In this document: positions 1 to 47,013 of the stretch, one piece after another
How positions within the stretch are numbered: position 1 is the stretch's first letter
Layout of the letters: every line of letters begins with the position of its first letter
Assembly: GCA_026014515.1 (NCBI GenBank)
Contig: JAOZIG010000286.1
Coordinates: forward strand, 1-60,425
Length of the DNA: 60,425 bases
Source of the DNA: Candidatus Bathyarchaeota archaeon
GTDB taxonomy: Archaea; Thermoproteota; Bathyarchaeia; TCS64
Direction of reading: 5' to 3'
Translations under genes and position numbers: made by a program
The notes under the pieces: generated by a model
The model's database searches: none
Seen by the model: the letters and a program-made list of their open reading frames with translations, nothing else
Told to the model about the DNA's origin: nothing

Positions 1-801
1 TCCATGCATGTCGCCCCAGAATAGCTTGTACTTGGGCTCTTCCGTGAGCATCATTACTGGGTTTGACTCAGCTTTGTGCCCCATGTTATCCTTTATCTTG
101 ATGGTTTGCAGTCCTTTTTTATCCAGTTTGACACTGAACCTATGGGCTCCAATATCTGCTTCAGTGAACCTATAGGGATGAACATCAAGGCCATCAAAGC
201 TTACCGCTCCACGATAATCATCACACCTGTTACCATAACTATCCACAGCCCTGACAACTACCTCAAAGGGCTCTCCAACCGGGGCACCAGAAGGAGCTGA
301 GACATCTATTCTATCAATGTCACCGCCGATGATCTTGATCCTTGGAGATTCCGTTATCTCTTCAAAGAGCCCAGTCCCGAAAGGATCAACGAGAACCTTG
401 AAGATATGCTCCTGTTCCCTGAATGTCTGGGCTCGTAAACCGGGTGAGCCCTTGCTTTTATCACCGAGAACAATTGTAATAGTGTCTCCCTCATAGAGGC
501 TGCCGTCACGTACATCAACCTGAATGGCTGCCCTGAAGGGACGAATATGACCTCTCCTACTATACCTGTATTCTAAGCGTACCTTTCGGCTCGCAGAGAC
601 CGTGGTATACCCTGACCCCGATGGATCTGTGAACTGTGGTGATTCAATATCGCTGACACTTCTATGCGCGATCCTAATGCTGCCCCCATCATCAATACCA
701 TACTTCCCCACATGATACACAAGCGTCCATGACCCATAACCCCCAGCAACTACCCTGCTTGCTGGTGTTATCTCTGCGTCTCCAAGCCATCCTCTATCCA
801 T
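1..801 (-). CDS. Partial CDS (first 267 codons, continues past the left edge): hypothetical protein, possibly a PHP/DUF3604-like metal-dependent hydrolase
   Basis: Absent from the ORF track because no stop lies in the window. I checked every + strand triplet in phase over 1..801 and none is TTA/CTA/TCA, so the minus frame is open from ATG (801-799) to base 1. Translation: MDRGWLGDAEITPASRVVAGGYGSWTLVYHVGKYGIDDGGSIRIAH...EEPKYKLFWGDMHG. The terminal FWGDxHG resembles the first metal-binding motif of PHP-type hydrolases, but the family call is weak. Confidence 0.55.
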   Translation of the reverse strand, partial: MDRGWLGDAEITPASRVVAGGYGSWTLVYHVGKYGIDDGGSIRIAHRSVSDIESPQFTDPSGSGYTTVSASRKVRLEYRYSRRGHIRPFRAAIQVDVRDGSLYEGDTITIVLGDKSKGSPGLRAQTFREQEHIFKVLVDPFGTGLFEEITESPRIKIIGGDIDRIDVSAPSGAPVGEPFEVVVRAVDSYGNRCDDYRGAVSFDGLDVHPYRFTEADIGAHRFSVKLDKKGLQTIKIKDNMGHKAESNPVMMLTEEPKYKLFWGDMHG

Positions 802-32599: not shown

Positions 32600-34219
32600 T
32601 TGATTATTCTAGGGGGAAGAGGATTAATATTGACTGAGGGACGCAACTGGAACCGCGTACAGACCACAATGGCGGTTATAATCATATTCATGATTCTTGG
32701 ATTCGCTGGACTCTATTTCTGGGAACCAGATGACGCTGTAAGCTTCACAAAACATGGTACAGTAGGAATAATCGAGGTCTATGGAGTAGTAGACGAGAGT
32801 TATCAAGCGTATATCTTGTCCTCAGCGGTAGAAGAAGCCCTCAACGATAACGATGTAAAAGCAGTTGTACTGGAGATTGATAGCCCCGGAGGCTCAGCCT
32901 ACCTTATAGAACAAGTCTATCTAGACTTATTAGAGCTCAAAACCGAGAAACCAATCGTAGCATCCATATCCATGGCGCTATCAGGAGGATATTATATCGC
33001 TGTAGCAGCCGACCATGTCTATACATTGCCCTCAGCTATGGTTGGAAACGTTGGTGTCATCGGCACTGGACCGGGCTGGATTGTTCCTAGCGAGACCACC
33101 CTTGAGACTGGTCCAAACAAGATAACCGGGTTCAGCCCAGAAAAGTTCCCCTTTGACCTTACTACGGTTCTTCAAAGTTTCAGTGATGCCGTGGAGACTG
33201 GAAGGGGTGATGCCCTGAATATACCCATGTCTACGGTGACAAAAGGTTCTATCTGGATGGGTGTTGATGCTGTTGAGGATGGTTTAGCTGATGAGGTTGG
33301 CTCGCTTCAGACTGCAATCAAGTATGCTGCTGAGTTAGCTAACCTTGAAGACTATGATGTTGAATCACTAGTCGCACGAGTCGCTGAAAGCTATGAAGCT
33401 ATAGAGATAACTTATCCATCAATAGCGGAGTTAAACGAAAAGAATCCTCCGCCAGCAATCTACTATCTATATCTGCCTGAGCAGATTTACGCCCAGAGCG
33501 AGACACCTGCTAACCAGACAGAGTCAATGAACGTGACCAGCATCAGGGGTGACGTATTGGTGGATATGAGTCACGGTAACGCTATCAGTCCATGGATACT
33601 TGATGCCTTCGCTAGACTAGTTACAGAAGAAGGTATGGTAGTCGGGTATTCTGATAGCTGGAGTAATATCGAGGACGCCTTGAACGAGACCAAGGCGCTA
33701 GTAATCGCCTGCCCAACACAATACTACTCCAACGAGGAATATGAGAAGATCAACTCATGGGTAATCCGAGGAGGAACCCTGATACTACTGGGTGATGCAA
33801 GCGCTGATTTCCTAAGCGTCTATACGTTACAGGCTCCACTGAACAGCCTCAGCGAGCACTGGGGAATCCACTATGGAAACGGCTATCTCTACAACCTAGA
33901 GGAAAACTACGGCTACTATCGAAACATCATCGTAGATGACATCAGAGACAGCTTCCTATCTGAAGGCGTCGATGAACTGGTATTCTACACCGCTGGACCA
34001 GTCTACTCAGCGAGCCGAGGCTACATGACCACAAGCACTCACACCTATGACTCAGTTACCGAGAGACCGGGAGAATATGATGTGGTTGCCATCTACAAGC
34101 TTGGAGACCAGAAGGTAATCGCCTTCGGAGACATGACTTGGCTCATGGAGCCATACGTTAACGCAGCCGACAACTATAGGCTACTAGAAAACTTGGTTGA
34201 GGCAATAGCCTCAGACTAG
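32600..34219 (+). CDS. sppA: Membrane-anchored signal peptide peptidase SppA (S49) fused to a C-terminal DUF4350/GATase1-like domain
   Basis: 539 aa. TM helix (MAVIIIFMILGFAGLYFW), S49 motifs LEIDSPGGS and SMALSGGYYIA, then about 250 extra residues with ALVIACPTQYYSNEEYEKINSWVIRGGTLILLGD. TTG start; an internal ATG at 32669 is an alternative. Confidence 0.75.
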   Translation: MIILGGRGLILTEGRNWNRVQTTMAVIIIFMILGFAGLYFWEPDDAVSFTKHGTVGIIEVYGVVDESYQAYILSSAVEEALNDNDVKAVVLEIDSPGGSAYLIEQVYLDLLELKTEKPIVASISMALSGGYYIAVAADHVYTLPSAMVGNVGVIGTGPGWIVPSETTLETGPNKITGFSPEKFPFDLTTVLQSFSDAVETGRGDALNIPMSTVTKGSIWMGVDAVEDGLADEVGSLQTAIKYAAELANLEDYDVESLVARVAESYEAIEITYPSIAELNEKNPPPAIYYLYLPEQIYAQSETPANQTESMNVTSIRGDVLVDMSHGNAISPWILDAFARLVTEEGMVVGYSDSWSNIEDALNETKALVIACPTQYYSNEEYEKINSWVIRGGTLILLGDASADFLSVYTLQAPLNSLSEHWGIHYGNGYLYNLEENYGYYRNIIVDDIRDSFLSEGVDELVFYTAGPVYSASRGYMTTSTHTYDSVTERPGEYDVVAIYKLGDQKVIAFGDMTWLMEPYVNAADNYRLLENLVEAIASD

Positions 34220-35441: not shown

Positions 35442-37448
35442 TCAGAGTTCAATAATGGTCTCTTTGTCTTTGAACTTCTTGAACGTGCTCTGTTTTCTAC
35501 TCGCACTCTTTCTTATGATGGGCTCCTCTCCCATCGCCCACTTACTGATGAGGTTCCTGTGCTCATAGTAGCGTCTATCCAGCAACCAGTAATGACACCA
35601 GTCATCTCTACCACGAATACCCCTACCGAGACTCTGGTTAGCCGCCCTGAAAGCATCCATAGTATACCATTTGTTACCGAGTCCCTTCTTCTGTTTGTTG
35701 AAGTAGTTCATCTGTGCCTTCACTAGGGGGTCACCGTAGTTTGCGTAGGGTACACCTACGAGGAATATTCCTCTTGCTTGGTCCTCTGGGAAGTTGCTTC
35801 CTTCACTGTTTCTACCCCTGAAAACACAGCATAACACAGCGCCACCGAGACTCACAGACATGTTCTTGTATCTGGTTACCACGTCTCGGTTCTGTGCGGC
35901 GTCTCTTCCCTCCCTGAATAACTGTTTGCCGCCAAGGTATGGTATCCCGTTTTGTGTCTTTACGATGCCTTTCTTGGTCCATGCATCAATACAGTTGTTC
36001 ATGAATCCCCTTTGGGTAAAGAATATGAGGGCTCCTTGGTTTACTTTCTCAAGGTCAGATGCGATGGTTGAACCCATCTTGGCTATCATCTGCTCGGTAC
36101 GTTCATTATACACCGACGAGATGCCCGTGTCGATGGTCATCTTGATCTTTTCTGATTTCTGTATCGGTGGATAGACCTGTTTCTCGGCTTTCTCCTGTCC
36201 AATAATCTCGGCAAATGTATCAATGGGGCTCAGAGTACCACTCATGATAAGCACACCATCAGCATCCTGTACAACAGGCTCTACTGCGAGACTTGGATCA
36301 AGACACCTGTACTCTATTACAGGCGCCCCATAATAGTTGCGCGTATACAATCCAACGTATCTATTCTTCTGGCTCGTCTGAAGCAACTCAAAGAACTCCA
36401 GTAACCCATTCAGATAGCTTACAGGTGGGTTTCGGTTCTGAATCTTAATAGATCTGATTGCGTCAACAAAGGGGGCATGTCCCTCTATGAAGGTGTGAAT
36501 ATCTGTTCGGAGGGCTTTCTCTAGTTCCTCCTCCAATATGCTTGGAGCAACGAGTCTGGGCTTACCGCTATCATTCTTCAACAGATGCTCACCGAGTCGG
36601 TTGATATAACGAGCTGATTTTCCGATGAGCCTCATCTCCTCCGCTGCGGCACTCAAACCACGCTCCGTCAAGGTATCGCTGAGAATCTCTTGACCAACTT
36701 GGTCAATATTATGGCCCTCATCGAGGATGAGTATTTTTTTTTCCAAGTCTAGCCCAGTCATGAGCCGGATCATGGGGTTGAAAATATACGGATAAGGCGC
36801 CACAATCACGTTCACATCCTTTGCAACGCGTCTTGAGAGGAAGTATGGACAGATTTTTCTCTTCTGACCTTCAGCTATGAGTTCTTTTCTCCCGAGAATA
36901 ATCGGTAAGCCCTTCGGTGGGTTCTCTATCTCGTGGATATATGGGCACTCATCGTTTTTTCTAAGAGTATGACAATACTCTTGAGCTTCATTTGATGGAA
37001 GCTCCCTGCATTCAGAGTTTATACAGAGAAACGCCCTGCTTGCTAGGTTCACCGCCGAATACTTTTCACCTGATTTATCGTTGATACTCTCTAACTCAAG
37101 CAATACCTGACGAACCTGCTCATGGGTACGTGTAGCATAGATAATCTGTTTACCCGTTGGAAGAAGACAGCTTAGGGTACTGATGGTCTTCCCGAAGCCG
37201 TTACAGGCTTCCGCAATCAATACACCGCCTTTAGCGACGGTTCTCTGAACATCCTCTATGAACTCTACCTGCGGTTGATATGGTTCATATGGGAAAAGGT
37301 CTCTCCAATCCTTCCTCGGTGCATTACTAGGCACTATTTCTAGGAGTGTTTCACAGTCTCTGCAGAATCTGTCTTCCTCGTATTCTTCTAAACTGTATGA
37401 TTTACCACATTTGGGGCACTGTGCAGAGGAAGCCATAGCAGTACCCAT
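35442..37448 (-). CDS. xpd: XPD/Rad3-family SF2 DNA helicase with an N-terminal zinc ribbon
   Basis: 668 aa. Zn ribbon CPKCG...CRDC, Walker A ACNGFGKT, a Cys-rich FeS-domain region (CINSEC..C..C..C), DEGH box (ILDEGHNI), motif V/VI RGRNSEGSNF and QSLGRGIRGRDD. Confidence 0.85.
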   Translation of the reverse strand: MGTAMASSAQCPKCGKSYSLEEYEEDRFCRDCETLLEIVPSNAPRKDWRDLFPYEPYQPQVEFIEDVQRTVAKGGVLIAEACNGFGKTISTLSCLLPTGKQIIYATRTHEQVRQVLLELESINDKSGEKYSAVNLASRAFLCINSECRELPSNEAQEYCHTLRKNDECPYIHEIENPPKGLPIILGRKELIAEGQKRKICPYFLSRRVAKDVNVIVAPYPYIFNPMIRLMTGLDLEKKILILDEGHNIDQVGQEILSDTLTERGLSAAAEEMRLIGKSARYINRLGEHLLKNDSGKPRLVAPSILEEELEKALRTDIHTFIEGHAPFVDAIRSIKIQNRNPPVSYLNGLLEFFELLQTSQKNRYVGLYTRNYYGAPVIEYRCLDPSLAVEPVVQDADGVLIMSGTLSPIDTFAEIIGQEKAEKQVYPPIQKSEKIKMTIDTGISSVYNERTEQMIAKMGSTIASDLEKVNQGALIFFTQRGFMNNCIDAWTKKGIVKTQNGIPYLGGKQLFREGRDAAQNRDVVTRYKNMSVSLGGAVLCCVFRGRNSEGSNFPEDQARGIFLVGVPYANYGDPLVKAQMNYFNKQKKGLGNKWYTMDAFRAANQSLGRGIRGRDDWCHYWLLDRRYYEHRNLISKWAMGEEPIIRKSASRKQSTFKKFKDKETIIEL

Positions 37449-37492: not shown

Positions 37493-38488
37493 TTACTCAG
37501 TGCTAAACATGTTCCTCATGCTACGCTTAAACCGAATCCAGACATCTTTTACTCCACTCATACTGATCTTTTGAGGGTTAATCGCCGTCAACCCATTGGG
37601 CTCAATAGCCAATATAACAAACAAGAAAATAATTGGAATCAAACCCTCATAGACCCCGGTATTAACTCCAACATAACTCATCAAAACATAGATAATCACC
37701 TTAGAGCCAAGCGCAGTCATCAGACCACCGATAATCGCGCCAGTGATACTACCAAGCCCACCTAGAACACTCCCCGCCATCACGTTAATCAACAAGGTAT
37801 CACTGAAGTTGACGCTCGTACTCAGCCACATCGATATAATGGAACCTGCTAAAGCTGACAAAGCACCAGAGACAAACCATGAGAAAAAGTGGACAAAACG
37901 AATATTCACCCCCAATCCCTGAGACAAGTCCTCATCCTCAGCCGTAGCCCTCATAGCAATCCCATGCTTGGACCACTTGAGAAATCCCTGTAACACTATT
38001 ACGACCAAGAGAATCGTGCCCGGTGCGATTATACCAATCGCCGGGAAACCATTAATCCTGAAATCATAGTTGTAAAGATTGAAGCCCTGACTCAGAACCC
38101 TATTCTCAATTAGTAACCAGAAGCTAAACATAGCTAGAAACTGTGTGATAATTTGGCTTATGATATAGAAGGTAAAGGTCAACGTGATCTCACTGTACGC
38201 TCTACCCTTAATGGGCTTAACAATCACAACATACAGCACTACGCCTAAAATTCCGCCAACTAGCGCTGATATAGGCCATGTATGATAAGGGTTGAACCCA
38301 TAAAACCTCACCAAATAATAGGTACAAACCGTGCCAATCGAGGCAAAACTCGTATGGGCAAAGTTAGGAAACTTTTCCATCATATAAGTAAACGTGAAGC
38401 CAATGCAAAGCATCACAAGAATGCTGACGTTTAGCGCCACACTGACTATTAGCCCTACATTCACGACAATCACCGAGTCTTGGCACAA
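37493..38488 (-). CDS. Branched-chain amino-acid-type ABC transporter permease (LivH/LivM family), solitary
   Basis: 331 aa and polytopic. It has the FPNFAHTSFASIG motif typical of the family. No ATPase or binding-protein gene is adjacent. Confidence 0.75.
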   Translation of the reverse strand: MCQDSVIVVNVGLIVSVALNVSILVMLCIGFTFTYMMEKFPNFAHTSFASIGTVCTYYLVRFYGFNPYHTWPISALVGGILGVVLYVVIVKPIKGRAYSEITLTFTFYIISQIITQFLAMFSFWLLIENRVLSQGFNLYNYDFRINGFPAIGIIAPGTILLVVIVLQGFLKWSKHGIAMRATAEDEDLSQGLGVNIRFVHFFSWFVSGALSALAGSIISMWLSTSVNFSDTLLINVMAGSVLGGLGSITGAIIGGLMTALGSKVIIYVLMSYVGVNTGVYEGLIPIIFLFVILAIEPNGLTAINPQKISMSGVKDVWIRFKRSMRNMFSTE

Positions 38489-38591
38489 TATAAGAACTAA
38501 GACCTTTAACCCGCAAAATCTGATAATAGTTTATAAAATAACTGAAAAAACGCCCCCCGGTATGGGAATATCTAAAGCCTCATACAGCACA

Positions 38592-38599
38592 ATTTAAAT
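38592..38599 (+). promoter_or_regulatory. TATA-like box (ATTTAAAT) upstream of the FtsZ/tubulin-like module
   Basis: About 40 nt upstream of the TTG start at 38639. A purine-rich AGAAGGGG (38624-38631) could act as an SD-like element. Positional argument only. Confidence 0.3.
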
Positions 38600-38638
38600 C
38601 ACCAATCAAAGGGAAAGTAAACAGAAGGGGCGTTAACA

Positions 38639-39613
38639 TTGAAACAAATTAAGTTACTCTTAGTAGTCACTCTGATATTTTCAACCATACCCATTGCACA
38701 AGCACAGAGCACCCTACCTTGGATAGAAGAATACACCATAACCAATTACAGTACAGGGCAAACAACCCTAGAGTGGAGCTCACAAACAGGAGAAATACTC
38801 CAAAACGCCCCAATACTCGCAGGAGACGAGTACCAGATCACATTCACCCTAAACGTACGGCAAACAGTAGACAACGCCGTACTAACCCTAACCCTAACAA
38901 GCTTCATGACTCAACAGAGCGAGTCAACCTACTGGGAGGTTGGACCAGAGTTCCCACGAACAGCCGACTATAACCCAGCCCAGCGAACCATAAGCCTACA
39001 CCATAATCAGGGTGTATACGAGGTTACAGCCACAGGCAAGATTAGCAGTGACGCTACAATCTATACAGGTGAAGGGCTCACACTTCATAGACCCCTTGAG
39101 ATAACCATCATTGAGCTCGATGGGCCCGTAGGTACTGACTACGATGACATAACGTCTACAGTTATCGATAACAAGATCGATTCATACAGGTTCTTACTCA
39201 ACCAAAAAAAGACGGAGCTACAGAACTATCAAGCCACAGGAGTAGACCCCGCCTATATTCAACTCTACGAGAACTTTGTAGCCCTCAGCGAAGAACAAGC
39301 CGAACAGGGCCTCGTAGACAACGCTATGGATTTACTGAACAACCTTGAGGTGGACACCACGCCAGTAGAAACTGGTCCAAGCTGGATGGAACGATACTTC
39401 CTACCCGCAGTAGGCGGACTAGCATTAATCGCCATACTAGGCGTATTCCTATTCATACGCACTAACAGCAAGTTAGGGTTCGTAAAGATGGTCGTAGAAG
39501 ACCAGATAAGAGAGATGGAGGCACTACAGAGCCGTGCCTCACGCATAGATCGAAACCTCGCACAGAGGCTAGACGAGATAAAAACACGATTGAAGGAGAC
39601 TGAAAACGCATGA
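38639..39613 (+). CDS. Bitopic membrane protein: extracellular domain, one TM helix, cytoplasmic coiled-coil tail (module gene 1)
   Basis: 324 aa. Signal peptide LLLVVTLIFSTIPIAQAQ, a beta-rich then helical ectodomain, a TM helix (YFLPAVGGLALIAILGVFLFI), and a helical tail of about 50 aa (EDQIREMEALQSRASRIDRNLAQRLDEIKTRLKETE). The stop overlaps the next start (ATGA at 39610-39613). Confidence 0.75.
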   Translation: MKQIKLLLVVTLIFSTIPIAQAQSTLPWIEEYTITNYSTGQTTLEWSSQTGEILQNAPILAGDEYQITFTLNVRQTVDNAVLTLTLTSFMTQQSESTYWEVGPEFPRTADYNPAQRTISLHHNQGVYEVTATGKISSDATIYTGEGLTLHRPLEITIIELDGPVGTDYDDITSTVIDNKIDSYRFLLNQKKTELQNYQATGVDPAYIQLYENFVALSEEQAEQGLVDNAMDLLNNLEVDTTPVETGPSWMERYFLPAVGGLALIAILGVFLFIRTNSKLGFVKMVVEDQIREMEALQSRASRIDRNLAQRLDEIKTRLKETENA

Positions 39614-42282
39614 GCGACAGAGGATACAGCAGCATAATACACATGGTGGGACTCGGAGGAGCAGGCACCAACATCGTCGAACAATTCATGAAAGACGAGA
39701 AAACCCTAGACCTCCTCGGACAAGGATCAACACGCCTCAGCATGATGGCCATGGACATCGCCGACCCCGACATAAAGAGCCTAGACGAAACCTACAACAA
39801 GATACTAGACCAGATGAGAAGAAAAGGCGTCCCACAAGACCGTCTGAATCTAATCGCTCGGAGCGTCAAGTTCCCAAGCGCTGAAGCAATGTTTGACTTC
39901 GTCCAGAACAAGTTCGAGGAACACCTACGCAACGAGGGGATACAGATTGAGGAATACAACCCATGGCTACCAAGCACAGTCGCCATCCCCCCGCTAGCAG
40001 GCGGAGCAGGCAGACGCAGAAGCCTAGCCAAGGCAATCTACAACCTCAACTACTACCAACTGGGTATCATCAAGTCCTTCACAAACATGTTCAAGGACAA
40101 CGCCCTGAGCAGTATCAGCAGCCCAATAATACTCCTAGTATTCGGCCTCGGAGGCGGAACAGGCAGCGGAATGGCACTAGACTTCGCACGCCACCTACGG
40201 CAAGCAGTAGGCTCAGGCGTACCCATTATGGCGCTTTGTGTTCTCCCCTGTCCCGGAGACGACCCACCAGCCAAAGGATACTCAGCTTTCAATGGAATAA
40301 ACGAACTAAGTCTACTCTTGAACCGTGAGAAAAACGCTTTACTCACTCATGGAGTGGGCGAGGTCTACAGGAACCCCTTCAACAGCGTCATGTTCCTACC
40401 CCTGATGCCAGCTTACAGCAAGACAGGCAACATCATGTCTGCGCGAGACGAGATCGACAAGATGATCGTCGAGATGATCTATGTCCTCATGGACTTTGAC
40501 ATGGCGGACCTCATGAGCGGAATAGGCACAGAAGTCGGACTCACAGATGACAGCGTCCACACCCTCAGCATGGTCAAAGTCAACTATCCGGTAGATGCAT
40601 ACGTCGAGGCATTCAAGTCAAACCTCGAAAAAATGCAGCAACTCGCCGAGATAAGAAAAGAAAAACTTGAGGTACTCCAGAAACTCCAGAGCGTACTTGA
40701 TCTCAAGAAGGAAGAAGTCGGAGAGATATACAAGGACTACCTCATCAAGACCAACGCCTACAACGCAGAAGATTTCGAGGACAAAGTAAACCAGATTATC
40801 CACGGAAGCCCACGATTCGACGAGGACCTAAACCTCTACGTACGAGGCATCGAGGACCAGATCAACAAATGGATCGATGAAGCAATCCAATTCGTAAACA
40901 CCATCAAGCTAGTCGCGGATGAAGGCACCATCGAGGACAGCGTAGCCAAACTCATCCTATACGATGAGGAAGCCTCCCCAATGGACAGCCTTGAAGGCAT
41001 GATACGAAACATCAGCCGAACACATCCAGAATACAAGGCACAAAAGGCAGCCATATTCGAGCGCCTAGAACAACTGGTACCAAGCAGTCAGAGTCTGACG
41101 CTACGTCAGAAGAAGCTCATTGATGATTTCATGAACCTCGCAAGCATCACAGAGCAAGGCTTGGATATACTCACACTATACAACGAGAACAGGCACCTAA
41201 TTGACGCCATCAGCCGCCGTTACGAGATACTCCCCGAAGAAGACAAGCTAAACGTCAACTTCAAAGACATGAAAGCTGAACTCACCACCATCTACCATCT
41301 CCTGCAGCTCATGATCAAGCCCAGCAGCGACGAGATCAAGATGATAGACGAGCACCTCACATACCTACAGGCACTGATAGTAAAGTTCAGGTCCAGACGT
41401 GAGGAGCTGGAAAACGAACTCATACGGGTTGAGGAAAAGAAGAAACGAATGGAGTTCGACCGTGATAAATACGAGAAAGACTCCAAAGGCTTCAGCCTAT
41501 TCGGCAAGAAAAAATACAACCGAGAAAAACTCAAGGAAATCGAACGCGAACTAGGCAGCGTCAGAGAAGACGAGATACACCTCAACAGTGAACTAGGCTC
41601 AGCAGATACCCTTATCGATTTCTATCAAGAGCTAGCAAAGAAACTGGAAGTCACAAGCGACTACCGTAAACAGCTACAAACCGTGCTTGAGCTATCACAG
41701 GATTACCAGACAAAGCTCAGCGGCATCATCCAGAGCAACCGCTACTATGAGCGAACCACTGAGCTAACAGGCGCCGAGCAAGGCAAGATAATCTACAAGA
41801 TTCTAGCCGAGCAGGAAGACATGCTCAACAGGGAAGGCATCCTTGAAGAGATACTCGACGTAGACCACTTCAAGGATTATATGCGGAGTATCGTCAGGAT
41901 CTACAGAACCCCAAACATCATGGGAATGAAGAGCAGCTACCGCAGCGACTACCTCTGGGTAACAGTCCAGACACCACAGGGGCTCTGGGACGAGGACCTC
42001 ACACAGGAACTCTATACCGCCCTAGCAGGCTACGTCACAGGAGACGTATCAAAGACCATCACTGTTAGGATAGTTGAGTGCCGAGACCCATGGGTCATCA
42101 GAGTAGTTGTAATCGCTGGGCGTGGTCAGATCGAGGACCTTGCACCATATGATGAGATGGAGCGTCTCAACAGGAAGGCAAGCGACTTTGAGAAGAGCCT
42201 GAGCAGGAGCTTCCTTGTAGAGCACAAGGGTACGACTGAAGAGTTGCTTGAGAAGCTTAAGGAGAAGCTAAAATCCGTTTAG
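39610..42282 (+). CDS. FtsZ/tubulin-superfamily GTPase with a very long internal coiled-coil region (module gene 2)
   Basis: 890 aa. GLGGAGTN (aa 14-21), AGGAG (130-134), GGGTGSG (181-187), DFDMAD (295-300), a K/E/L-rich helical region at about aa 330-770, and an FtsZ C-domain-like strand pattern DYLWVTVQTP...TITVRIVEC...VIRVVVIAGRG (aa 780-839). Confidence 0.8.
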   Translation: MSDRGYSSIIHMVGLGGAGTNIVEQFMKDEKTLDLLGQGSTRLSMMAMDIADPDIKSLDETYNKILDQMRRKGVPQDRLNLIARSVKFPSAEAMFDFVQNKFEEHLRNEGIQIEEYNPWLPSTVAIPPLAGGAGRRRSLAKAIYNLNYYQLGIIKSFTNMFKDNALSSISSPIILLVFGLGGGTGSGMALDFARHLRQAVGSGVPIMALCVLPCPGDDPPAKGYSAFNGINELSLLLNREKNALLTHGVGEVYRNPFNSVMFLPLMPAYSKTGNIMSARDEIDKMIVEMIYVLMDFDMADLMSGIGTEVGLTDDSVHTLSMVKVNYPVDAYVEAFKSNLEKMQQLAEIRKEKLEVLQKLQSVLDLKKEEVGEIYKDYLIKTNAYNAEDFEDKVNQIIHGSPRFDEDLNLYVRGIEDQINKWIDEAIQFVNTIKLVADEGTIEDSVAKLILYDEEASPMDSLEGMIRNISRTHPEYKAQKAAIFERLEQLVPSSQSLTLRQKKLIDDFMNLASITEQGLDILTLYNENRHLIDAISRRYEILPEEDKLNVNFKDMKAELTTIYHLLQLMIKPSSDEIKMIDEHLTYLQALIVKFRSRREELENELIRVEEKKKRMEFDRDKYEKDSKGFSLFGKKKYNREKLKEIERELGSVREDEIHLNSELGSADTLIDFYQELAKKLEVTSDYRKQLQTVLELSQDYQTKLSGIIQSNRYYERTTELTGAEQGKIIYKILAEQEDMLNREGILEEILDVDHFKDYMRSIVRIYRTPNIMGMKSSYRSDYLWVTVQTPQGLWDEDLTQELYTALAGYVTGDVSKTITVRIVECRDPWVIRVVVIAGRGQIEDLAPYDEMERLNRKASDFEKSLSRSFLVEHKGTTEELLEKLKEKLKSV

Positions 42283-43407
42283 CATTTGCTCTTTGATGTT
42301 ATCCCATTCATCTTTGTCAACGAGGTTTTGTTCGACATTCATCTTGCTGAACCGTTCGATACGCTGATAGACCTCGTTAAACTTTTTCTTGGTATCATAT
42401 CCACCGACCAATATGATAACATCAACACGATCCCCATACTCATCAACAAACAAAGGCTCACAAATCTGAGGAATATCCACACCTATACTCTCCTGAAGCC
42501 ACTGGGTTACCTCAAACTCAAGCTGCCCCTTCTGGAACTCCTCCTGATAACTCAAGGGAGCCCGCACCAAGACATACACCATCTTCGCTGAGGTGAGTTC
42601 AAGATACATCAACGGCTGCTCTAGGGTGATCTCCAGTATGTTCCTGAAGCTACCGTAGATGTCGAGGCTGCAACCTGTGGCTAGTAGTGGTGAGTAGAGG
42701 TTTACAGCGTAGCTTCTTGAGAGTCTGTCTAGCTCTCTGATGATGTTTTCTTTTTCTAGGAGCATGTCGATGAAGTAATCAATTATGGCGGCGTTCTGAA
42801 GCACGTCACCTTTTCTATGTACTCCGTTGTAGTCTTCCATCAGTCCCTGATCAATCAAGATCAAAGGCGTAGAGTTGTCGATTAGAATCCTCCCAACAGC
42901 GGAGAAGGCGTTATACAGGGCGTCGCTACTGTGGTTCATCGAGGGGAATAAGGCTACTCCGATTGTGCTTTTCTCTTTCTTGGCTAGGAACCGGTGTATT
43001 TCGGGTAGTATTCCTGAGCATGCGCCTTCGCTGATGTTTGAGAGGCTGAGAACCTGTTTATGGTACCCGTAGATGAGGTGTTCGAGTTCCGAATCGACAT
43101 CACTTTTATCATAATACTCCTGCATATCGAACCAGTAGTGGGGCTCGTAGAGGGTATCCGCCATCAGGCTGTATTTAGGGTCGATGTGAATTGTTTTATG
43201 CTGTAAGTCTTTCTTATGGATCACACGAAGAAGCGTATAATAGTCCTCTTCGCTGAGCTTAGGTGAATCCATGAGGGTCTCAAGCGTATACTGTCCTACG
43301 GTAACCACAGCCTTATCAGGGAGAACAGGCGATAATGCCTCTATCTGTTTCCTGAGGCTAGCAAGTAGGTTGATATCAGTGTTCGAGGTCAATGGAGGAT
43401 CAAGCAC
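42268..43407 (-). CDS. Divergent tubulin/FtsZ-like protein with a degenerate nucleotide-binding signature (module gene 3)
   Basis: 379 aa. VVTVGQYTLETL (compare tubulin GQCGNQ), SEGACSG in place of GGGTGSG, VALFPS, ALYNAFSAVGRILIDNSTPLILIDQGLMEDY (compare tubulin PYNA..S.HQL.EN.D....IDNEALYDI), and a C-domain pattern MVYVLVRAP...RVDVIILVGGYD. By-eye motif alignment only. Confidence 0.6.
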   Translation of the reverse strand: MLDPPLTSNTDINLLASLRKQIEALSPVLPDKAVVTVGQYTLETLMDSPKLSEEDYYTLLRVIHKKDLQHKTIHIDPKYSLMADTLYEPHYWFDMQEYYDKSDVDSELEHLIYGYHKQVLSLSNISEGACSGILPEIHRFLAKKEKSTIGVALFPSMNHSSDALYNAFSAVGRILIDNSTPLILIDQGLMEDYNGVHRKGDVLQNAAIIDYFIDMLLEKENIIRELDRLSRSYAVNLYSPLLATGCSLDIYGSFRNILEITLEQPLMYLELTSAKMVYVLVRAPLSYQEEFQKGQLEFEVTQWLQESIGVDIPQICEPLFVDEYGDRVDVIILVGGYDTKKKFNEVYQRIERFSKMNVEQNLVDKDEWDNIKEQMLNGF

Positions 43408-43429: not shown

Positions 43430-46090
43430 ATGGATATGAGTTTCGCGCTATTTATGGACGGGGACATGGGTGAACAGACCGGAAAACTGGTCACATTCAT
43501 CATAAACATGGTCTCAATGTCCCTCGGATTCATACTCATACCCCTCTTACCAATGCCGTTACCATATATCGTGGCTTTCCTTGTCGCATACGCGACCTAC
43601 AAGGACAAACCATACGGAATGATGACAGGCAGTCTACTGATTAGCCTCGGTTTGATTTACCATCTTTCTCGTATCGGGTTCTTCCAGATATTCCAGAGCC
43701 CAATCATGAAGATATTCATTTTATCCATTATTATCGCACCTTTCGCAATATGTCCAGCTATTATCTCGAATAACTTGCACATCATCGCCATTGATATGGG
43801 GATAATTGCTGTAGCTTTGCTCTTCTTTGAACAGTCATTCTATCTAGCGATCCCCTTAATCCTAGTTTTTGCTACCATTTACCGGGGTAGAGGAATCGCA
43901 TTCACATTCATCTACTATGCATTCATTTCGATTCCTCTTCAGACAATTCAGTACCTAAAAACCTTTGAAATGGGAGTTTTTCCTCCCCTTTATACTCCTC
44001 TCACTTTGATCTATCACGAGATTCAGAGTAGTTTAAGTTACATCAATTTAGATGAACTCACAAAAGTCTTTAACAGCATTAGCGAGATTTTTCTATCCCG
44101 TGGATTCGAACGATATGTTACAGAGATACCCGATTATATCGTTGAGGACTTTAGCACTTACCTCGTAACAGATTATATCGAATATATTCGTTCGATTGTG
44201 TTACCGCCTTCCTTTGCTCCAAGCTATGTGATTGATAGTTTCATGCAGTTCGTCGCCACATACATACCTACATACGAGAACTCAGCTGTCCAGACCTATG
44301 TAAACTCAACACTGCCCGGGTTTATGACTCAGAACCTCGATCCAAGTGTTTGGGCTGCTCTTCCCTCCGTAGGTTCAGGTGTGCTTAAATTACAGGTGGA
44401 GGAGTTGTTTCCGCTTTATGTGAATCAGGTCTTTCAAGCATATTTCCGTGAAGCTACCGGTCAGTTGTTGAACTCGGTGCCTGGTATAGTCTTCTTCTTG
44501 GTGATTATGATGGGGTTCATCTCGGCGATCACTTTGCTGAATATGAATATGCCTGACCCTGTGAAGGAGTCTGTAATACCCGGTAAGTATGTCGATGTAG
44601 TGATCTATCTCTTACCCATCTTTGTCGCAGCTGTTACTAACCTCATATTCTTTGTAGCGATTGACAAACTGCGGCAACCACTAGCATTCCAAGCCACCGT
44701 AAATCAAGCCATCATCATAAACAGCACCATCTTTACTGTGCTTTTCTCGGCTCCTGTTAGCTTTAGTAAGTATCTCTTTGATCTTAGGGAGGTTAAGACT
44801 GTTAGAACCGTCTCCTTGCTGGAGGAATGTGATTATCAACAGAAAAAGTTGGAACGTTTGATTTATTTGGTGAATCGGATGCGGTCACCTGTGCCTGATA
44901 ACTTCATTGACCTCAAGACAAGGATGCTCATTGCCTTAGACGAGGTAAAAGAGATAAAATCAAGCACTGAAAGCTCAAAGGAACTTAAAGAGATAGATGA
45001 AAACATCAGACGCATCTACAATGGGTTAAAGGAAAGCGTGGAGAGCTTCGAGACACAGCTTGACGTAGCCCTCAGAGACTATTATATCAAAACAAAGTTT
45101 GAGTATCTTGAAGCCGCCGGAGAGATACTTGATCTTGGACTCGGCGTAGATGCACCCATTCTACCCGAGCTTGATTTTGACGCCCCACTTGAGGAGAAAC
45201 TGGACCATATTGATGGTGTTATTGAGGCTGGACGCGTACTTGTAGAGGCACTAATCGACACTAGTGACAAGATCTACGAGATCATCAGCAGCCTCTTCGA
45301 ACCAAACCTCCCCAAGGATAGTGCCACTTTAATGATCAGCAGGGAAAAACTGGAAGAAGACGAGCCATGGGTAATCATTGACGCGATATTGATTAGCTTG
45401 AAGAACTGGGAGAAACAGTACAGCGCTGACATTGTCAACGCTACACGCCCAATCAATGATAGCGTTGAGACTGTCGTACAACTCAGCAAAAGACGAGGCA
45501 GTCTAAGTAGCCTCCTCGGGGAAAAATATGAGGAGATCAGAGCACTCTCCGAGCATGTAGAGGCACGTAACTTTAGCGCAGATAACGAGAACCTCAGAGT
45601 ATTGAAGGTTATTCTCATCAGGGACACGATCCTGAACACTGTTGACGTGGTGGGTAAAATTATTGGAATCCTATATTATCATATCAAGGACCTTGAGTTC
45701 AACATCAACCTGTTATTACCGCGTGAGGATTTTGAGTGGAACAGGAACCTTACCCTCACGGAGCGTATGAGTCAGAGCTTGGATGTCATCAACAACTATG
45801 AGCAGTACCGGATTGATGAACTCATCAGCCACCTTTACAGGGTACTCAGCTATATCGATGAAGCTGTAGATACCATCGAGTATTATAATGAGCGCAAGGA
45901 GATGCTTCTCAACTACCCGGTGTTTGAGAAAAAGATCACCCGAATACTTGATGAGAAGGATGAAGTGAAGCTTGATGAACTAGGGGTCTCTGAGAAGTAT
46001 GGACGCGAGTACCTGAAGATGTACATCAGAACCACGTATAGTCCACTGCGGCTTGAGGAGACCGCGGACAGCATAAGGAGGAGCATCTAG
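43430..46090 (+). CDS. Large polytopic membrane protein with a helical cytoplasmic C-terminal domain of about 430 aa (module gene 4)
   Basis: 886 aa. Multiple hydrophobic helices in aa 20-200 and 345-445. The C-terminal half is E/K/L/I-rich and helical. I recognise no catalytic motif. The choice among Met 1, 3, 9 and 13 as the start is uncertain. Confidence 0.7.
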   Translation: MDMSFALFMDGDMGEQTGKLVTFIINMVSMSLGFILIPLLPMPLPYIVAFLVAYATYKDKPYGMMTGSLLISLGLIYHLSRIGFFQIFQSPIMKIFILSIIIAPFAICPAIISNNLHIIAIDMGIIAVALLFFEQSFYLAIPLILVFATIYRGRGIAFTFIYYAFISIPLQTIQYLKTFEMGVFPPLYTPLTLIYHEIQSSLSYINLDELTKVFNSISEIFLSRGFERYVTEIPDYIVEDFSTYLVTDYIEYIRSIVLPPSFAPSYVIDSFMQFVATYIPTYENSAVQTYVNSTLPGFMTQNLDPSVWAALPSVGSGVLKLQVEELFPLYVNQVFQAYFREATGQLLNSVPGIVFFLVIMMGFISAITLLNMNMPDPVKESVIPGKYVDVVIYLLPIFVAAVTNLIFFVAIDKLRQPLAFQATVNQAIIINSTIFTVLFSAPVSFSKYLFDLREVKTVRTVSLLEECDYQQKKLERLIYLVNRMRSPVPDNFIDLKTRMLIALDEVKEIKSSTESSKELKEIDENIRRIYNGLKESVESFETQLDVALRDYYIKTKFEYLEAAGEILDLGLGVDAPILPELDFDAPLEEKLDHIDGVIEAGRVLVEALIDTSDKIYEIISSLFEPNLPKDSATLMISREKLEEDEPWVIIDAILISLKNWEKQYSADIVNATRPINDSVETVVQLSKRRGSLSSLLGEKYEEIRALSEHVEARNFSADNENLRVLKVILIRDTILNTVDVVGKIIGILYYHIKDLEFNINLLLPREDFEWNRNLTLTERMSQSLDVINNYEQYRIDELISHLYRVLSYIDEAVDTIEYYNERKEMLLNYPVFEKKITRILDEKDEVKLDELGVSEKYGREYLKMYIRTTYSPLRLEETADSIRRSI

Positions 46091-47013
46091 TGGCACCCAT
46101 CAAGGGGCGCTTAGGAGATAGGAAAAACGCTACTATGGAGCTAGATGGTCGAGAGATCAAGCTTGTTGTTAAGGGCGGGTTTTTTGGCGGAAAATCAAGT
46201 AACCGTGTAATCAAGCTCGATGATGCAACCTCAATCAAACACGGAACCGGTGAGAAACCCTTTCCCGATGCCATGATGATCAAGATCCAGTACCCTGAAG
46301 AAGAGTTATCCTTTTTTAGCATCAATAAAGCGCCTCTTGAGGCTTTGGCTGTCGAGATGGAGGCTTTTATTGAGAAACGTGACAAGCTTCTTGTCGAGAT
46401 GGAGAAAGAGTTTGTGAGAGACCGTGAGGCTCATGTTGCCCTGCTTTATCTTAACCTTGAGTTTGTTGAGGCTCTTATGGAGCTAGTTACTCGGATTAAT
46501 GGCTCCGTTGATTGGGGTGCAGTTGATACAATGTATCATCAGGTGGAGCGAGTTAATCTAGATAGAGATAATCTAACAGTCACCCGTCCTTCACATCTTA
46601 GTCTTGAGCGCTTGAGTATTGGTATCGATACGCGAAACGTTGACATAATCAAATCCGAGGTTTATGACCTATTATTTGTGTTACGTGAAAGCTGCGCCGA
46701 GAAAGCCAGACATGTTGAGCCTTGGTTCAATAACGTGTTTCATAGGTTGTTCCTCGACTCATTGTTTTCTTTCTGGGGTAGGCATCTTGAGTCTTTAACA
46801 GGGGCGTTCAGCGGTGAGTCTGTTGAGAACTCTGAGATAAGGCTTCAAGAACTAGGCAAACTAGTTCACAAAGAGATAGGAGAAGACGATAAACAACTCA
46901 CAACCAGTCAAGAGTATAGCGAGAACCATAGGATTCTCTTTGAATGGGTTGAGGCACTTCAAAACGTTGAGTTTGAACCAAGTGAAGAACTGGAGAAGCG
47001 TTTAGCTTCCTGA
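46090..47013 (+). CDS. Hypothetical protein with an N-terminal PH-like beta domain and a helical C-terminal domain (module gene 5)
   Basis: 307 aa. The GTG start shares a base with the upstream TAG (46088-46090); ATG at 46135 is an alternative. N-terminus: MELDGREIKLVVKGGFFGGKSSNRVIKLDDATSIKHG...MMIKIQY. Confidence 0.6.
   Translation: MAPIKGRLGDRKNATMELDGREIKLVVKGGFFGGKSSNRVIKLDDATSIKHGTGEKPFPDAMMIKIQYPEEELSFFSINKAPLEALAVEMEAFIEKRDKLLVEMEKEFVRDREAHVALLYLNLEFVEALMELVTRINGSVDWGAVDTMYHQVERVNLDRDNLTVTRPSHLSLERLSIGIDTRNVDIIKSEVYDLLFVLRESCAEKARHVEPWFNNVFHRLFLDSLFSFWGRHLESLTGAFSGESVENSEIRLQELGKLVHKEIGEDDKQLTTSQEYSENHRILFEWVEALQNVEFEPSEELEKRLAS

What the first reader, a model, noticed from the sequence alone, without database searches (positions are those of the whole stretch)
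39610..42282. 890-aa FtsZ/tubulin-superfamily GTPase whose fold appears split by a coiled coil of about 440 residues
Seen directly, the N-terminal part carries the GTPase motifs. Aa 14-21 GLGGAGTN (nt 39649-39672) is a G1/T1 glycine box like FtsZ GxGGxGxN. Aa 130-134 AGGAG is a T3-like GAG. Aa 181-187 GGGTGSG (nt 40150-40170) is the exact tubulin/FtsZ signature loop. Aa 295-300 DFDMAD (nt 40492-40509) resembles the FtsZ T7 synergy loop NxDFAD. From about aa 330 to 770 the sequence is K/E/L/Q-rich with heptad-like spacing (for example KMQQLAEIRKEKLEVLQKLQSVLDLKKEE and RSRREELENELIRVEEKKKRMEFDRDKYEKD). Aa 780-839 (nt 41947-42126), DYLWVTVQTPQGLWDEDLTQELYTALAGYVTGDVSKTITVRIVECRDPWVIRVVVIAGRG, then reproduces the strand-helix-strand-strand pattern that closes the FtsZ C-terminal domain (GVLVNITGG.DL.L.E...I...A.VI.G...D...I.VTVIATG). 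My inference is that the coiled coil is an insertion inside the C-terminal domain rather than a tail. FtsZ, CetZ and tubulins are roughly 350-450 aa, and I do not recognise an architecture like this one.
Basis: partly seen in the sequence, partly recalled or inferred. Interest (0 to 1): 0.9.

Follow-up and report, generated by a model that had tools for sequence, protein, structure and literature searches.

The report
Split tubulin-like GTPase, Bathyarchaeia gene module
This gene encodes a member of the little-studied "FtsZ-like 1" branch of the tubulin/FtsZ family, in which a 430-residue helical module is inserted between two older parts of the protein; it sits in a conserved five-gene cluster with a second, degenerate tubulin-like protein and two membrane proteins.

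Summary

The protein belongs to the tubulin/FtsZ superfamily. It matches Pfam Tubulin_2 (PF13809) with E 1e-16, above the curated cut-off. A confident AlphaFold model (pLDDT 92, pTM 0.80) matches CetZ, TubZ, FtsZ and tubulins in Foldseek.

The claim that the helical region is an insertion rather than a tail is supported:
- Homologues of 470-590 aa align to residues 1-335 and 767-880, with a clean gap over 336-766.
- The model's element order matches FtsZ: S7, then the insert, then S8-H10-S9-S10.
- I could not inspect how the two halves pack in 3D. There is also no sequence-level match to the FtsZ C-terminal domain.

The architecture is not unrecognised. It matches FtsZl1, a family named in 2010 and apparently never studied experimentally.

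New here, as far as I could find:
- The split C-domain reading.
- A five-gene module conserved across Bathyarchaeia, also found in a Dehalococcoidia and (at least three of the five genes) a Nitrososphaerales genome.
- That module includes a second tubulin-family protein whose GTP signature is degenerate in Bathyarchaeia.

Likely function (inferred): a membrane-tethered, GTP-driven cytoskeletal or membrane-remodelling complex.

The parts
38639..39613 (+). Upstream partner ('anchor', 324 aa). It has a signal peptide (aa 4-22), an extracytoplasmic domain of about 230 aa, one TM helix (aa 255-273) and a cytoplasmic helical tail of about 50 aa. Its stop codon overlaps the start of the GTPase gene (ATGA).
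   Evidence: ORF list and translation; hydropathy scan. A homologue lies directly upstream in 81 of 85 Bathyarchaeia loci. Homologues are also present in the Dehalococcoidia and Nitrososphaerales loci, with blastp E 1e-14 and 1e-16. No Pfam, NCBIfam or PADLOC hit.
39610..42282 (+). 890-aa tubulin/FtsZ-superfamily GTPase of the FtsZl1 / Tubulin_2 type (the finding).
39610..40614 (+). aa 1-335: GTPase domain (S1-S6) carrying T1 GLGGAGTN (39649-39672), the T3-like AGGAG (39997-40011) and T4 GGGTGSG (40150-40170). It continues with core helix H7 (aa 275-294, 40432-40491), the T7-like DFDMAD (40492-40509), H8 and strand S7 (aa 316-325, 40555-40584).
   Evidence: Pfam Tubulin_2 covers aa 13-339. Secondary structure of the pLDDT-92 model. 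Foldseek hits to CetZ, TubZ, FtsZ and tubulin. hhalign puts the T7 residues in register with FtsZ.
40615..41907 (+). aa 336-766: helical insertion module of about 430 aa. It contains about 15 helices, the longest 53-55 residues, with a heptad-like amphipathic pattern. It is absent from the short-form homologues.
   Evidence: Clean gap in 39 short forms. Model secondary structure. Heptad statistic. No significant match to any solved structure.
41908..42249 (+). aa 767-880: C-terminal module. It comprises S8 (781-788), H10 (795-808), S9 (817-823), S10 (829-839) and then conserved helices carrying the motif DL..Y.EM...(F)E..LS.SFL.EHG. Long and short forms share it.
   Evidence: Short-form second domain: P0151 iE 1.4e-13, P0167 iE 2e-6. 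C-module HMM hits. Model. Covariation supports S8-S9 and S8-S10 pairing.
42268..43407 (-). Convergent partner (379 aa): a second tubulin/FtsZ-superfamily protein. Its T4 signature is degenerate: SEGACSG at about 43012-43032 in the window, and S.WDG[VI]GS[AG] in most Bathyarchaeia. Its 3' end overlaps the GTPase gene by 15 nt.
   Evidence: blastp E 1.6e-18 to the Dehalococcoidia 458-aa protein. That protein carries GGGTGSG and scores 42.7 bits on Pfam Tubulin, above the cut-off of 33. The family profile hits CetZ 3zid (E 1.4e-6), Asgard tubulin AtubB2 (6e-6) and TubZ (5e-4). hhalign against the FtsZl N-domain gives E 5e-5. Motif table. Present in 81 of 85 loci.
43430..46090 (+). 886-aa polytopic membrane protein. 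At least 6 TM helices lie within aa 20-445, followed by a soluble helical C-terminal domain of about 440 aa.
   Evidence: Hydropathy scan. Homologue in 78 of 85 loci in the same position and orientation. Dehalococcoidia homologue at E 3e-11. No family hits.
46090..47013 (+). 307-aa soluble protein. Its start overlaps the stop of the membrane-protein gene by one base. It is a frequent fifth member of the module, though its position varies.
   Evidence: Found in 31 of 88 loci by jackhmmer, sometimes upstream of the anchor gene. hhalign against the Dehalococcoidia 323-aa neighbour gives E 5e-6.

Best explanation
**Shown.**
- The gene encodes a Bathyarchaeia-wide orthologue group within the FtsZl1 / Tubulin_2 branch of the tubulin/FtsZ superfamily.
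- It has a complete set of nucleotide-binding loops (T1, T3-like, T4).
- It has an FtsZ-type T7 loop, D295-x-D297-x-x-D300, in register with FtsZ N207/D209/D212.
- A helical module of about 430 residues lies between two ancestral parts of the protein. Short-form relatives lack it.
- The gene is the most conserved member of a module of four to five genes. The other members are a single-pass membrane protein with a short cytoplasmic helix (translationally coupled upstream), a second tubulin-family protein with a degenerate GTP signature, a polytopic membrane protein with a long cytoplasmic helical domain, and a small soluble protein.

**Inferred.**
- The insert sits where H9 and the S7-H9 loop lie in FtsZ and tubulin. 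That is the lateral face of a protofilament, so the longitudinal GTP/T7 interface stays free.
- The protein therefore most likely assembles head to tail in a GTP-dependent way, either with itself or alternating with the degenerate paralogue as alpha/beta-tubulin and BtubA/B do.
- The helical stalks would project sideways and dock onto the cytoplasmic helical parts of the two membrane proteins.
- The result would be a membrane-tethered cytoskeletal or membrane-remodelling machine that works alongside the Cdv and canonical FtsZ systems of these archaea rather than replacing them.
For: **Family.** Pfam Tubulin_2 scores 61.7 bits against 27. Foldseek matches CetZ2, TubZ, FtsZ and tubulins at E 1e-6 to 1e-3.

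**Model quality.** pLDDT 92.0 and pTM 0.80, from a 132-sequence alignment.

**Insertion.** The short forms align to aa 1-335 and 767-880 only. The model's element order is S7, insert, S8-H10-S9-S10.

**T7 register and conservation.**

**Module conservation.**
- The anchor and the second tubulin-like gene are each in 81 of 85 loci, and the polytopic membrane protein in 78, always in the same order and orientation.
- The genes flanking the module differ in three distant Bathyarchaeia lineages.
- All five genes recur in a Dehalococcoidia locus. A Nitrososphaerales locus has the GTPase and the anchor (blastp E 1e-16) and possibly the second tubulin-like gene (hhalign E 0.004), followed by genes of similar size whose homology was not shown.

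**Second tubulin-family member.**

**Membrane topology of the partners.**

**Core chromosomal gene rather than a mobile one.** Relatives occur in 305 GTDB species genomes, and 78 of the best 80 records are titled Bathyarchaeia/Bathyarchaeota or related archaea; the two titled as bacteria are probably mis-binned. There are no relatives in IMG/VR and no PADLOC hits.

**Literature.** Bathyarchaeia also encode CdvABC and FtsZ1/2-type proteins (PMC9723716). Makarova & Koonin proposed membrane remodelling for FtsZl1 from different operon partners.
Against: - No biochemical or imaging data exist for any member of the family.
- I could not inspect the 3D packing of S7 with S8-S10, or of the C-module against the N-domain, because no coordinates or PAE were returned.
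- The Foldseek TM-scores (0.4-0.54 of the target) can be explained by the N-domain alone.
- The C-module has no detectable sequence similarity to the FtsZ or tubulin C-domains.
- My crude covariation test gave no S7-to-C-module signal.
- The T7 acidic residues are not conserved in the short forms.
- Contacts between the stalk and the membrane partners, and heteropolymerisation with the 379-aa paralogue, rest on gene linkage only.
- The insert shows no detectable relationship to the helical domain of the polytopic membrane protein.
Confidence: 0.5

Rival explanations
1. It is a GTP-regulated dimer or switch, not a filament former. The tubulin-fold GTPase would dimerise head to tail, or pair with the degenerate paralogue. 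The inserted helical bundle would act as a lever or stalk, functionally like dynamin-type or atlastin-type membrane remodellers, without forming long polymers.
For: - A GTPase with a long helical bundle, linked to membrane proteins, is the general layout of dynamin-like proteins (my own knowledge).
- The module pairs one intact tubulin-like protein with one degenerate one, which could form a closed heterodimer.
Against: - Conservation of both T7 aspartates in all long forms is the hallmark of polymerisation-coupled hydrolysis in FtsZ and tubulin.
- The insert sits at the lateral position, not the longitudinal one, so nothing obvious blocks polymerisation (inference).
Confidence: 0.25
2. The C-terminal module (aa 767-880) is an unrelated domain specific to this family. 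The protein would then be a truncated tubulin GTPase domain plus helical and accessory domains, as FtsZl1 was described in 2010. The fold would not be 'split'.
For: - There is no profile-level similarity of the module to FtsZ (E 0.28). Adding it to the N-domain raises the hhalign score by only about one unit.
- There is no FtsZ_C or Tubulin_C Pfam hit even on a spliced sequence.
- Covariation gives no S7-to-C-module signal.
- Makarova & Koonin found no similarity between the FtsZl1 C-terminal domains and those of FtsZ or tubulin.
Against: - The beta-alpha-beta-beta order directly after S7 and the insert is exactly that of S8-H10-S9-S10.
- The 10-residue strand 316-325 is predicted with pLDDT of 90 or more and needs pairing partners.
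- pTM of 0.80 for 890 residues argues for a fixed arrangement of the domains.
- The spliced profile aligns colinearly with FtsZ through S10, and with the compact 379-aa paralogue through its C-terminus.
- The N-domain and this module co-occur in every long and short form.
Confidence: 0.15
3. It is the main cell-division ring protein of Bathyarchaeia, a functional replacement for FtsZ.
For: It is present across Bathyarchaeia and is the most conserved gene of its module, at 50-92% identity across the class against 25-35% for its neighbours. It is linked to membrane anchors.
Against: - The literature reports that Bathyarchaeia encode a full CdvABC set and FtsZ1/2-type homologues (PMC9723716).
- The same module occurs sporadically in Dehalococcoidia and Nitrososphaerales, which have their own division systems.
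- Makarova & Koonin made the same argument for FtsZl1 in general.
Confidence: 0.08
4. It is part of a mobile element or an anti-virus defence system.
For: The neighbours are uncharacterised, and the module occurs patchily in bacteria, which suggests horizontal transfer.
Against: - No PADLOC hit for any of the five proteins.
- No relatives in 2.9 million viral contigs.
- The module is conserved class-wide and embedded among housekeeping genes.
Confidence: 0.02

Closest known systems
FtsZl1 family (Makarova & Koonin 2010; Pfam PF13809 Tubulin_2)
   Same: - It matches PF13809 above the curated cut-off.
- It has the same three-part layout: an N-terminal FtsZ-like GTPase, an extended coiled-coil or helical region, and a C-terminal domain.
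- It has family-specific inserts between T1 and T4.
- It coexists with canonical division genes.
- It has predicted membrane-associated partners.
   Different: - A profile of this group finds only 207 proteins in 1.84 billion cluster representatives, so it is a narrow, distant sub-branch.
- H7, a T7 loop and a beta-alpha-beta-beta C-module can be identified here. The 2010 analysis could not find T6-H7 and described a mostly alpha-helical C-domain.
- The operon partners differ. There is no vWA protein, P-loop GTPase, OmpA or protein kinase. Instead there are a second tubulin-like protein and two membrane proteins that match no known family.
CetZ, TubZ and FtsZ (solved structures 4b45, 2xka, 1fsz)
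   Same: They are the best structural matches to the model, with E 1e-6 to 2e-5. They share the T1 and T4 glycine loops, the H7 core helix and the T7 acidic loop.
   Different: - Identity is only 11-14%.
- NCBIfam FtsZ scores 21 bits against a cut-off of 295.
- None of them has the 430-residue insert between S7 and S8.
- There is no FtsZ-type C-terminal peptide and no SepF or FtsA context.
- There is no TubR/tubC partition context.
alpha/beta-tubulin and BtubA/B (co-encoded paralogue pairs)
   Same: Two tubulin-superfamily paralogues are encoded together, and one has an altered nucleotide site. This is the genetic logic of obligate heterodimers.
   Different: - Here the two partners differ greatly in size (890 against 379 aa).
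- The degenerate partner has lost the GGGTGSG signature altogether in Bathyarchaeia.
- No interaction has been shown.
Short-form Tubulin_2-like proteins of Actinobacteria, Paenibacillus and other bacteria (470-590 aa)
   Same: They share the N-domain and the C-module with the window protein (25-30% identity).
   Different: - They lack residues 336-766.
- The T7 aspartates are not conserved.
- They are found next to a tandem paralogue and small genes instead of the membrane module.

Membership tests
Tubulin/FtsZ superfamily | N-terminal Rossmann-type GTPase domain with the T1 glycine loop and the T4 signature GGGTG(S/T)G | tested here: met
   GLGGAGTN (aa 14-21) and GGGTGSG (aa 181-187) are invariant. 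Pfam Tubulin PF00091 scores 37.5 bits against 33. Foldseek hits CetZ, TubZ, FtsZ and tubulin.
Tubulin/FtsZ superfamily | Core helix H7 followed by a T7 loop with acidic residues that complete the active site of the next subunit | tested here: met
   The model has H275-294, then DFDMAD, then H298-305. hhalign aligns D295/D297/D300 with FtsZ N207/D209/D212. D297 is invariant and D300 at least 90% conserved in the long forms. Catalytic function was not tested.
Tubulin/FtsZ superfamily | C-terminal domain: a four-stranded sheet (S7-S10) with helices H9 and H10, packed on H7 | tested here: inconclusive
   The element order matches: S7 316-325, insert, S8, H10, S9, S10. Short forms join the two halves.
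Tubulin/FtsZ superfamily | GTP-dependent polymerisation into protofilaments | not testable with these tools
   Needs biochemistry or EM.
FtsZl1 (PF13809 Tubulin_2) | Match to the family model above its curated threshold | tested here: met
   61.7 bits against 27, covering aa 13-339 and model positions 3-350 of 356.
FtsZl1 (PF13809 Tubulin_2) | [quoted passage not shown] | tested here: met
   The C-domain here is alpha/beta rather than mostly alpha.
FtsZl1 (PF13809 Tubulin_2) | Operon with a vWA-domain protein, often with a divergent P-loop GTPase, OmpA-like proteins or Ser/Thr kinases | tested here: not met
   None of the four linked proteins hits vWA, a P-loop GTPase, OmpA or a kinase model in Pfam or NCBIfam. 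This is a typical context for the family, not a strict defining feature.
FtsZ proper (TIGR00065 equivalog; Pfam FtsZ_C) | Full-length match to the FtsZ model, and an FtsZ_C domain | tested here: not met
   TIGR00065 scores 21.4 bits against a cut-off of 295.2. There is no FtsZ_C hit, even for the spliced sequence.
TubZ-type partition systems | A tubulin-like GTPase next to a TubR DNA-binding adaptor and a centromere, on a plasmid or phage | tested here: not met
   The context is chromosomal, with housekeeping genes around the module. No DNA-binding family was detected among the neighbours. There are no viral relatives.

The most novel reading that the evidence does not exclude
Bathyarchaeia, and by transfer some Dehalococcoidia and Nitrososphaerales, possess a previously undescribed membrane-anchored cytoskeletal machine built from two tubulin-superfamily proteins. 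One keeps an active GTP site and carries a 430-residue helical stalk inserted at the lateral (S7-H9 / M-loop-equivalent) position of the C-terminal domain. The other is a compact pseudo-GTPase. Together with a single-pass and a polytopic membrane protein they would form GTP-driven filaments that shape or remodel the membrane. This would be a third archaeal tubulin-type system beside FtsZ and CetZ.
Probability: 0.35. Interest if true: 0.8.

Novelty: new variant of a known kind. Interest (0 to 1): 0.6.

Why it matters
FtsZl1 proteins are the most divergent branch of the tubulin/FtsZ superfamily. They have been treated as an outgroup with an "irregular" architecture and no C-terminal domain.

If the C-terminal domain is in fact retained and merely split by an insertion, these proteins keep the full equipment for polymerisation-coupled GTP hydrolysis. 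That changes how the early evolution of the superfamily is read.

Bathyarchaeia are among the most abundant archaea in sediments and have very few cultured representatives. A class-wide, membrane-linked module with two tubulin-like proteins would therefore be a concrete and testable entry point into their cell biology. It would also add a further case of paired tubulin paralogues outside eukaryotes.

Tried and rejected
1. **First AlphaFold run.** With 28 close orthologues it gave pLDDT 60.8, with both globular domains below 50. I discarded it and rebuilt a 132-sequence alignment of long and short forms.

2. **Sequence and profile search of PDB with the full family.** It gave only weak T4-loop hits to CetZ and FtsZ and generic coiled-coil noise for the insert. 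No structure of this family has been solved.

4. **Pfam on a spliced sequence and on the short forms.** No FtsZ_C or Tubulin_C hit.

5. **Home-made mean-field DCA on 392 sequences (Neff 88).**
   - It supports S8-S9 and S8-S10 pairing.
   - It gives nothing above background for S7 against the C-module.
   - Known N-domain strand pairs were also weak, so the test lacks power.

6. **Foldseek output.** It does not report the aligned query ranges, so it cannot show whether the C-module takes part in the match.

7. **Helical insert against the partners.** I tested whether it is related to the helical domain of the 886-aa membrane protein, the 307-aa protein or the anchor tail. It is not (E 0.065 or worse).

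8. **Defence and mobile-element hypotheses.** PADLOC and IMG/VR were both negative.

9. **Canonical FtsZ.** I looked for it in the window and in the fetched loci and found none, which is uninformative for such short stretches.

10. **BFVD Foldseek.** It gave one phage FtsZ-like hit. It also gave weak RusA-like hits (four-stranded sheet plus two helices) that probably reflect the C-module but are not significant.

Full report
**1. Observation**

The window holds an ATG-initiated ORF at 39610-42282 (+) of 890 codons.
- GLGGAGTN, aa 14-21
- AGGAG, aa 130-134
- GGGTGSG, aa 181-187
- DFDMAD, aa 295-300
- the quoted segment aa 780-839

In an alignment of 28 orthologues at 52-89% identity, the glycines of these loops and F296, D297 and D300 are invariant. 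Most of the glycines stay invariant in a 132-sequence alignment that reaches 21% identity.

The central region is E/K/L/I-rich and has a heptad-like hydrophobic pattern. 57% of residues 330-770 lie in strong a/d windows, against 9.5 +/- 8% in shuffles. It is not one continuous coiled coil. The confident model shows about 15 helices separated by loops, and the region carries many invariant non-heptad residues.

**2. What the protein is**

- Pfam assigns aa 13-339 to Tubulin_2 (PF13809; E 1e-16; 61.7 bits against a cut-off of 27). It assigns aa 170-234 to Tubulin (PF00091; 37.5 bits against 33).
- NCBIfam's FtsZ model scores only 21 bits against a cut-off of 295, so this is not an FtsZ.
- PF13809 corresponds to the "FtsZ-like 1" (FtsZl1) family of Makarova & Koonin 2010. 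[quoted passage not shown]
- Later work used these proteins only as a divergent outgroup (PMC9871819).
- Another paper noted that Bathyarchaeia carry "non-canonical FtsZ-like sequences" of undetermined role, beside CdvABC and FtsZ1/2 homologues (PMC9723716).
- I found no experimental study of the family and no solved structure.

**3. Distribution**

- More than 700 close homologues exist. All those listed are 870-900 aa when complete, and every one that carries a source name is annotated as Bathyarchaeota.
- A scan of one genome per GTDB species found 305 genomes with a relative. Of the best 80 records, 78 are titled Bathyarchaeia/Bathyarchaeota, uncultured archaeon or Thermoproteota; the other two carry bacterial names and are probably mis-binned.
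- The window itself is 91-92% identical to uncultured Bathyarchaeia MAGs.
- An exhaustive profile search of 1.84 billion cluster representatives returned only 207 proteins at E <= 1e-3. The group is therefore a narrow, distant sub-branch.
- About 14 further full-length clusters at 26-36% identity include proteins from Dehalococcoidia/Chloroflexi bacteria and Nitrososphaerales.

**4. Is the helical region an insertion?**

Two lines of evidence say yes.

First, the profile search uncovered short forms of 470-590 aa in Actinobacteria, Paenibacillus and other bacteria.
- Their N-terminus matches aa 9-290 and their C-terminus matches aa 754-877. The second-domain values are iE 1.4e-13 for P0151 and 2e-6 for P0167.
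- In the joint alignment all 39 short forms occupy window residues 1-335 and 767-880 and are gapped across 336-766.
- A more distant 1069-aa protein also carries the C-module after a long insert.

Second, a first AlphaFold run on close orthologues failed (pLDDT 60.8). A run on the 132-sequence alignment gave pLDDT 92.0 and pTM 0.80. Its element order is:
- S1-S6 with their helices
- H7 (275-294)
- DFDMAD
- H8 (298-305)
- a 10-residue strand (316-325)
- helices from 328 to 771
- strand 781-788, helix 795-808, strand 817-823, strand 829-839

This is the FtsZ order H7-T7-H8-S7-[H9]-S8-H10-S9-S10, with the insert taking the place of H9.

Further support:
- hhalign of the spliced profile (1-335 plus 767-880) against FtsZ runs colinearly from T4 to S10. 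It places D295/D297/D300 on E. coli FtsZ N207/D209/D212.
- Foldseek against PDB returns only CetZ, TubZ, FtsZ and tubulins in the top 50 (E 1e-6 to 1e-3).

**5. Limits of that conclusion**

- The tool returned no coordinates or PAE, and Foldseek did not report query ranges. I therefore could not see that strand 316-325 pairs with the three C-terminal strands, or that the module packs on H7.
- The TM-scores (0.4-0.54 of the target) can be explained by the N-domain alone.
- The C-module alone has no profile similarity to FtsZ (E 0.28) and no FtsZ_C or Tubulin_C Pfam hit.
- A crude covariation analysis supports S8-S9 and S8-S10 pairing but gives no S7-to-C-module signal. It was also weak for known N-domain contacts.
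- The split-fold reading is thus well supported by topology, by the short forms and by the high pTM. It has not been shown directly.

**6. Genomic context**

The gene is the second in a conserved module.
- **Anchor, 38639-39613 (+).** Its stop overlaps the GTPase start (ATGA). It is a 324-aa protein with a signal peptide, an external domain of about 230 aa, one TM helix and a cytoplasmic helix of about 50 aa.
- **Second tubulin-like gene, 42268-43407 (-).** It is convergent and overlaps the GTPase gene by 15 nt. It encodes 379 aa.
- **Membrane protein, 43430-46090 (+).** It encodes 886 aa, with at least six TM helices followed by about 440 soluble helical residues.
- **Small soluble protein, 46090-47013 (+).** It encodes 307 aa.

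None of the four hits Pfam, NCBIfam or PADLOC.

Conservation of the module:
- Across 85 Bathyarchaeia loci the anchor and the 379-aa gene are each present in 81, and the 886-aa gene in 78. Order and orientation are the same throughout.
- The flanking genes differ in distant lineages.
- The 307-aa protein is detectable in 31 of 88 loci, sometimes in another position.
- The GTPase is by far the most conserved member, at 50-92% identity against 25-35% for its neighbours in distant lineages.
- A Dehalococcoidia locus contains all five genes in a different order.
- A Nitrososphaerales locus has the GTPase and an anchor homologue (blastp E 1e-16), followed by genes of 746, 348 and 250 aa. Of these only the 348-aa product shows any similarity to a window partner (the 379-aa family, hhalign E 0.004), so their equivalence rests mainly on position and size.

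**7. A second tubulin-family protein**

- The 379-aa product is 23% identical (E 1.6e-18) to the Dehalococcoidia neighbour of 458 aa. That neighbour has an intact GGGTGSG and passes Pfam Tubulin at 42.7 bits against 33.
- A nine-sequence profile of the family hits CetZ 3zid (E 1.4e-6), Asgard tubulin AtubB2 (6e-6), TubZ (5e-4) and many tubulins and FtsZs.
- It aligns with the T4-H5 region of the 890-aa protein (E 5e-5) and colinearly with FtsZ residues 95-315 (E 0.014).
- In Bathyarchaeia its T4 signature is degenerate: SEGACSG in the window, and S.WDG[VI]GS[AG] in most lineages.
- The module therefore pairs an intact tubulin-type GTPase with a probable pseudo-GTPase paralogue.
- The short-form loci likewise carry a tandem paralogue (E 5.5e-20).

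**8. Mechanism (inference)**

- In tubulin, the S7-H9 loop (the M-loop) and H9 lie on the lateral face of the protofilament (my own knowledge of tubulin structure). An insert there leaves the longitudinal interface free.
- Together with the intact nucleotide loops and the conserved T7 aspartates, this favours GTP-dependent head-to-tail assembly, either with itself or alternating with the paralogue.
- The helical stalks would project sideways to engage the cytoplasmic helical parts of the two membrane proteins.
- This agrees with the membrane-remodelling idea that Makarova & Koonin drew from different operon partners.
- Bathyarchaeia also have Cdv and FtsZ1/2 systems, so a role other than primary cytokinesis is more likely.
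- Rival readings are listed separately with my estimates. They are a non-polymerising GTP switch with a stalk lever, an unrelated C-module, a primary division protein, and a defence or mobile system.

**9. Verdict**

- The superfamily assignment is supported, and so is the reading of the helical region as an insertion rather than a tail.
- The claim of an unrecognised architecture is not supported, because the family was named in 2010.
- What appears to be new is the evidence that the FtsZ-type C-terminal half (H7, T7, S7-S10) is retained and split, and the conserved five-gene module with a second, degenerate tubulin-like protein.
- I rate it a new variant of a known kind, interest 0.6.

Noticed in passing
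L086:15079-16455 and L087:13894-14940: The bacterial (Dehalococcoidia) and Nitrososphaerales counterparts of the 379-aa tubulin-like partner begin with a CxxxxC...CxxC zinc-ribbon-like motif. The Bathyarchaeia proteins lack it. The Nitrososphaerales protein is only weakly similar to the family (hhalign E 0.004).
   Followed up: partly
L088:7163-8623 (Pseudonocardia locus): The short-form Tubulin_2-like gene is preceded by a 486-aa tandem paralogue (blastp E 5.5e-20 to window aa 100-262) and followed by three small genes. Paired paralogues therefore also occur in the short-form lineage.
   Followed up: partly
L037 (DATGZD010000090.1) and L069 (DATHCJ010000009.1): Two contigs deposited as 'Candidatus Sulfotelmatobacter sp.' and 'Candidatus Limnocylindrales bacterium' carry the complete Bathyarchaeia-type module at 52% identity. 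This is probably mis-binning rather than transfer.
   Followed up: no
window 46090-47013; L086:14105-15076: To my eye, the N-terminal 80 or so residues of the 307-aa protein and of its Dehalococcoidia homologue look like a small beta-rich, PH/GRAM-like membrane-binding domain followed by helices. No family model hits it.
   Followed up: no
window 35442-37448 (-): An XPD-type helicase (DEAD_2, HBB and Helicase_C_2 domains) has a weak TFIIB-type zinc-ribbon match at its N-terminus (aa 10-38, E 0.005).
   Followed up: no
window 32600-34219 (+): A 539-aa protein joins an NfeD/S49 ClpP-like protease domain to a DUF4350 / ABC-transporter-auxiliary-like domain.
   Followed up: no
L005:2175-2762: In one distant Bathyarchaeia genome a CdvA gene lies about 7 kb upstream of the module. 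The linkage is not conserved in the other loci I inspected.
   Followed up: no
window 38000-42000: This stretch has a strong positive AT skew (+0.29 to +0.33). It coincides with the anchor and GTPase genes and is presumably caused by their K/E-rich, A-rich codons.
   Followed up: no
BFVD hits of model m55ead259a0d2: Several weak Foldseek hits to RusA-like resolvases appeared (70-130 columns, probability up to 0.96, E 0.15-0.3). RusA is also a four-stranded sheet with two helices on one side, so these hits probably reflect the C-terminal module.
   Followed up: no
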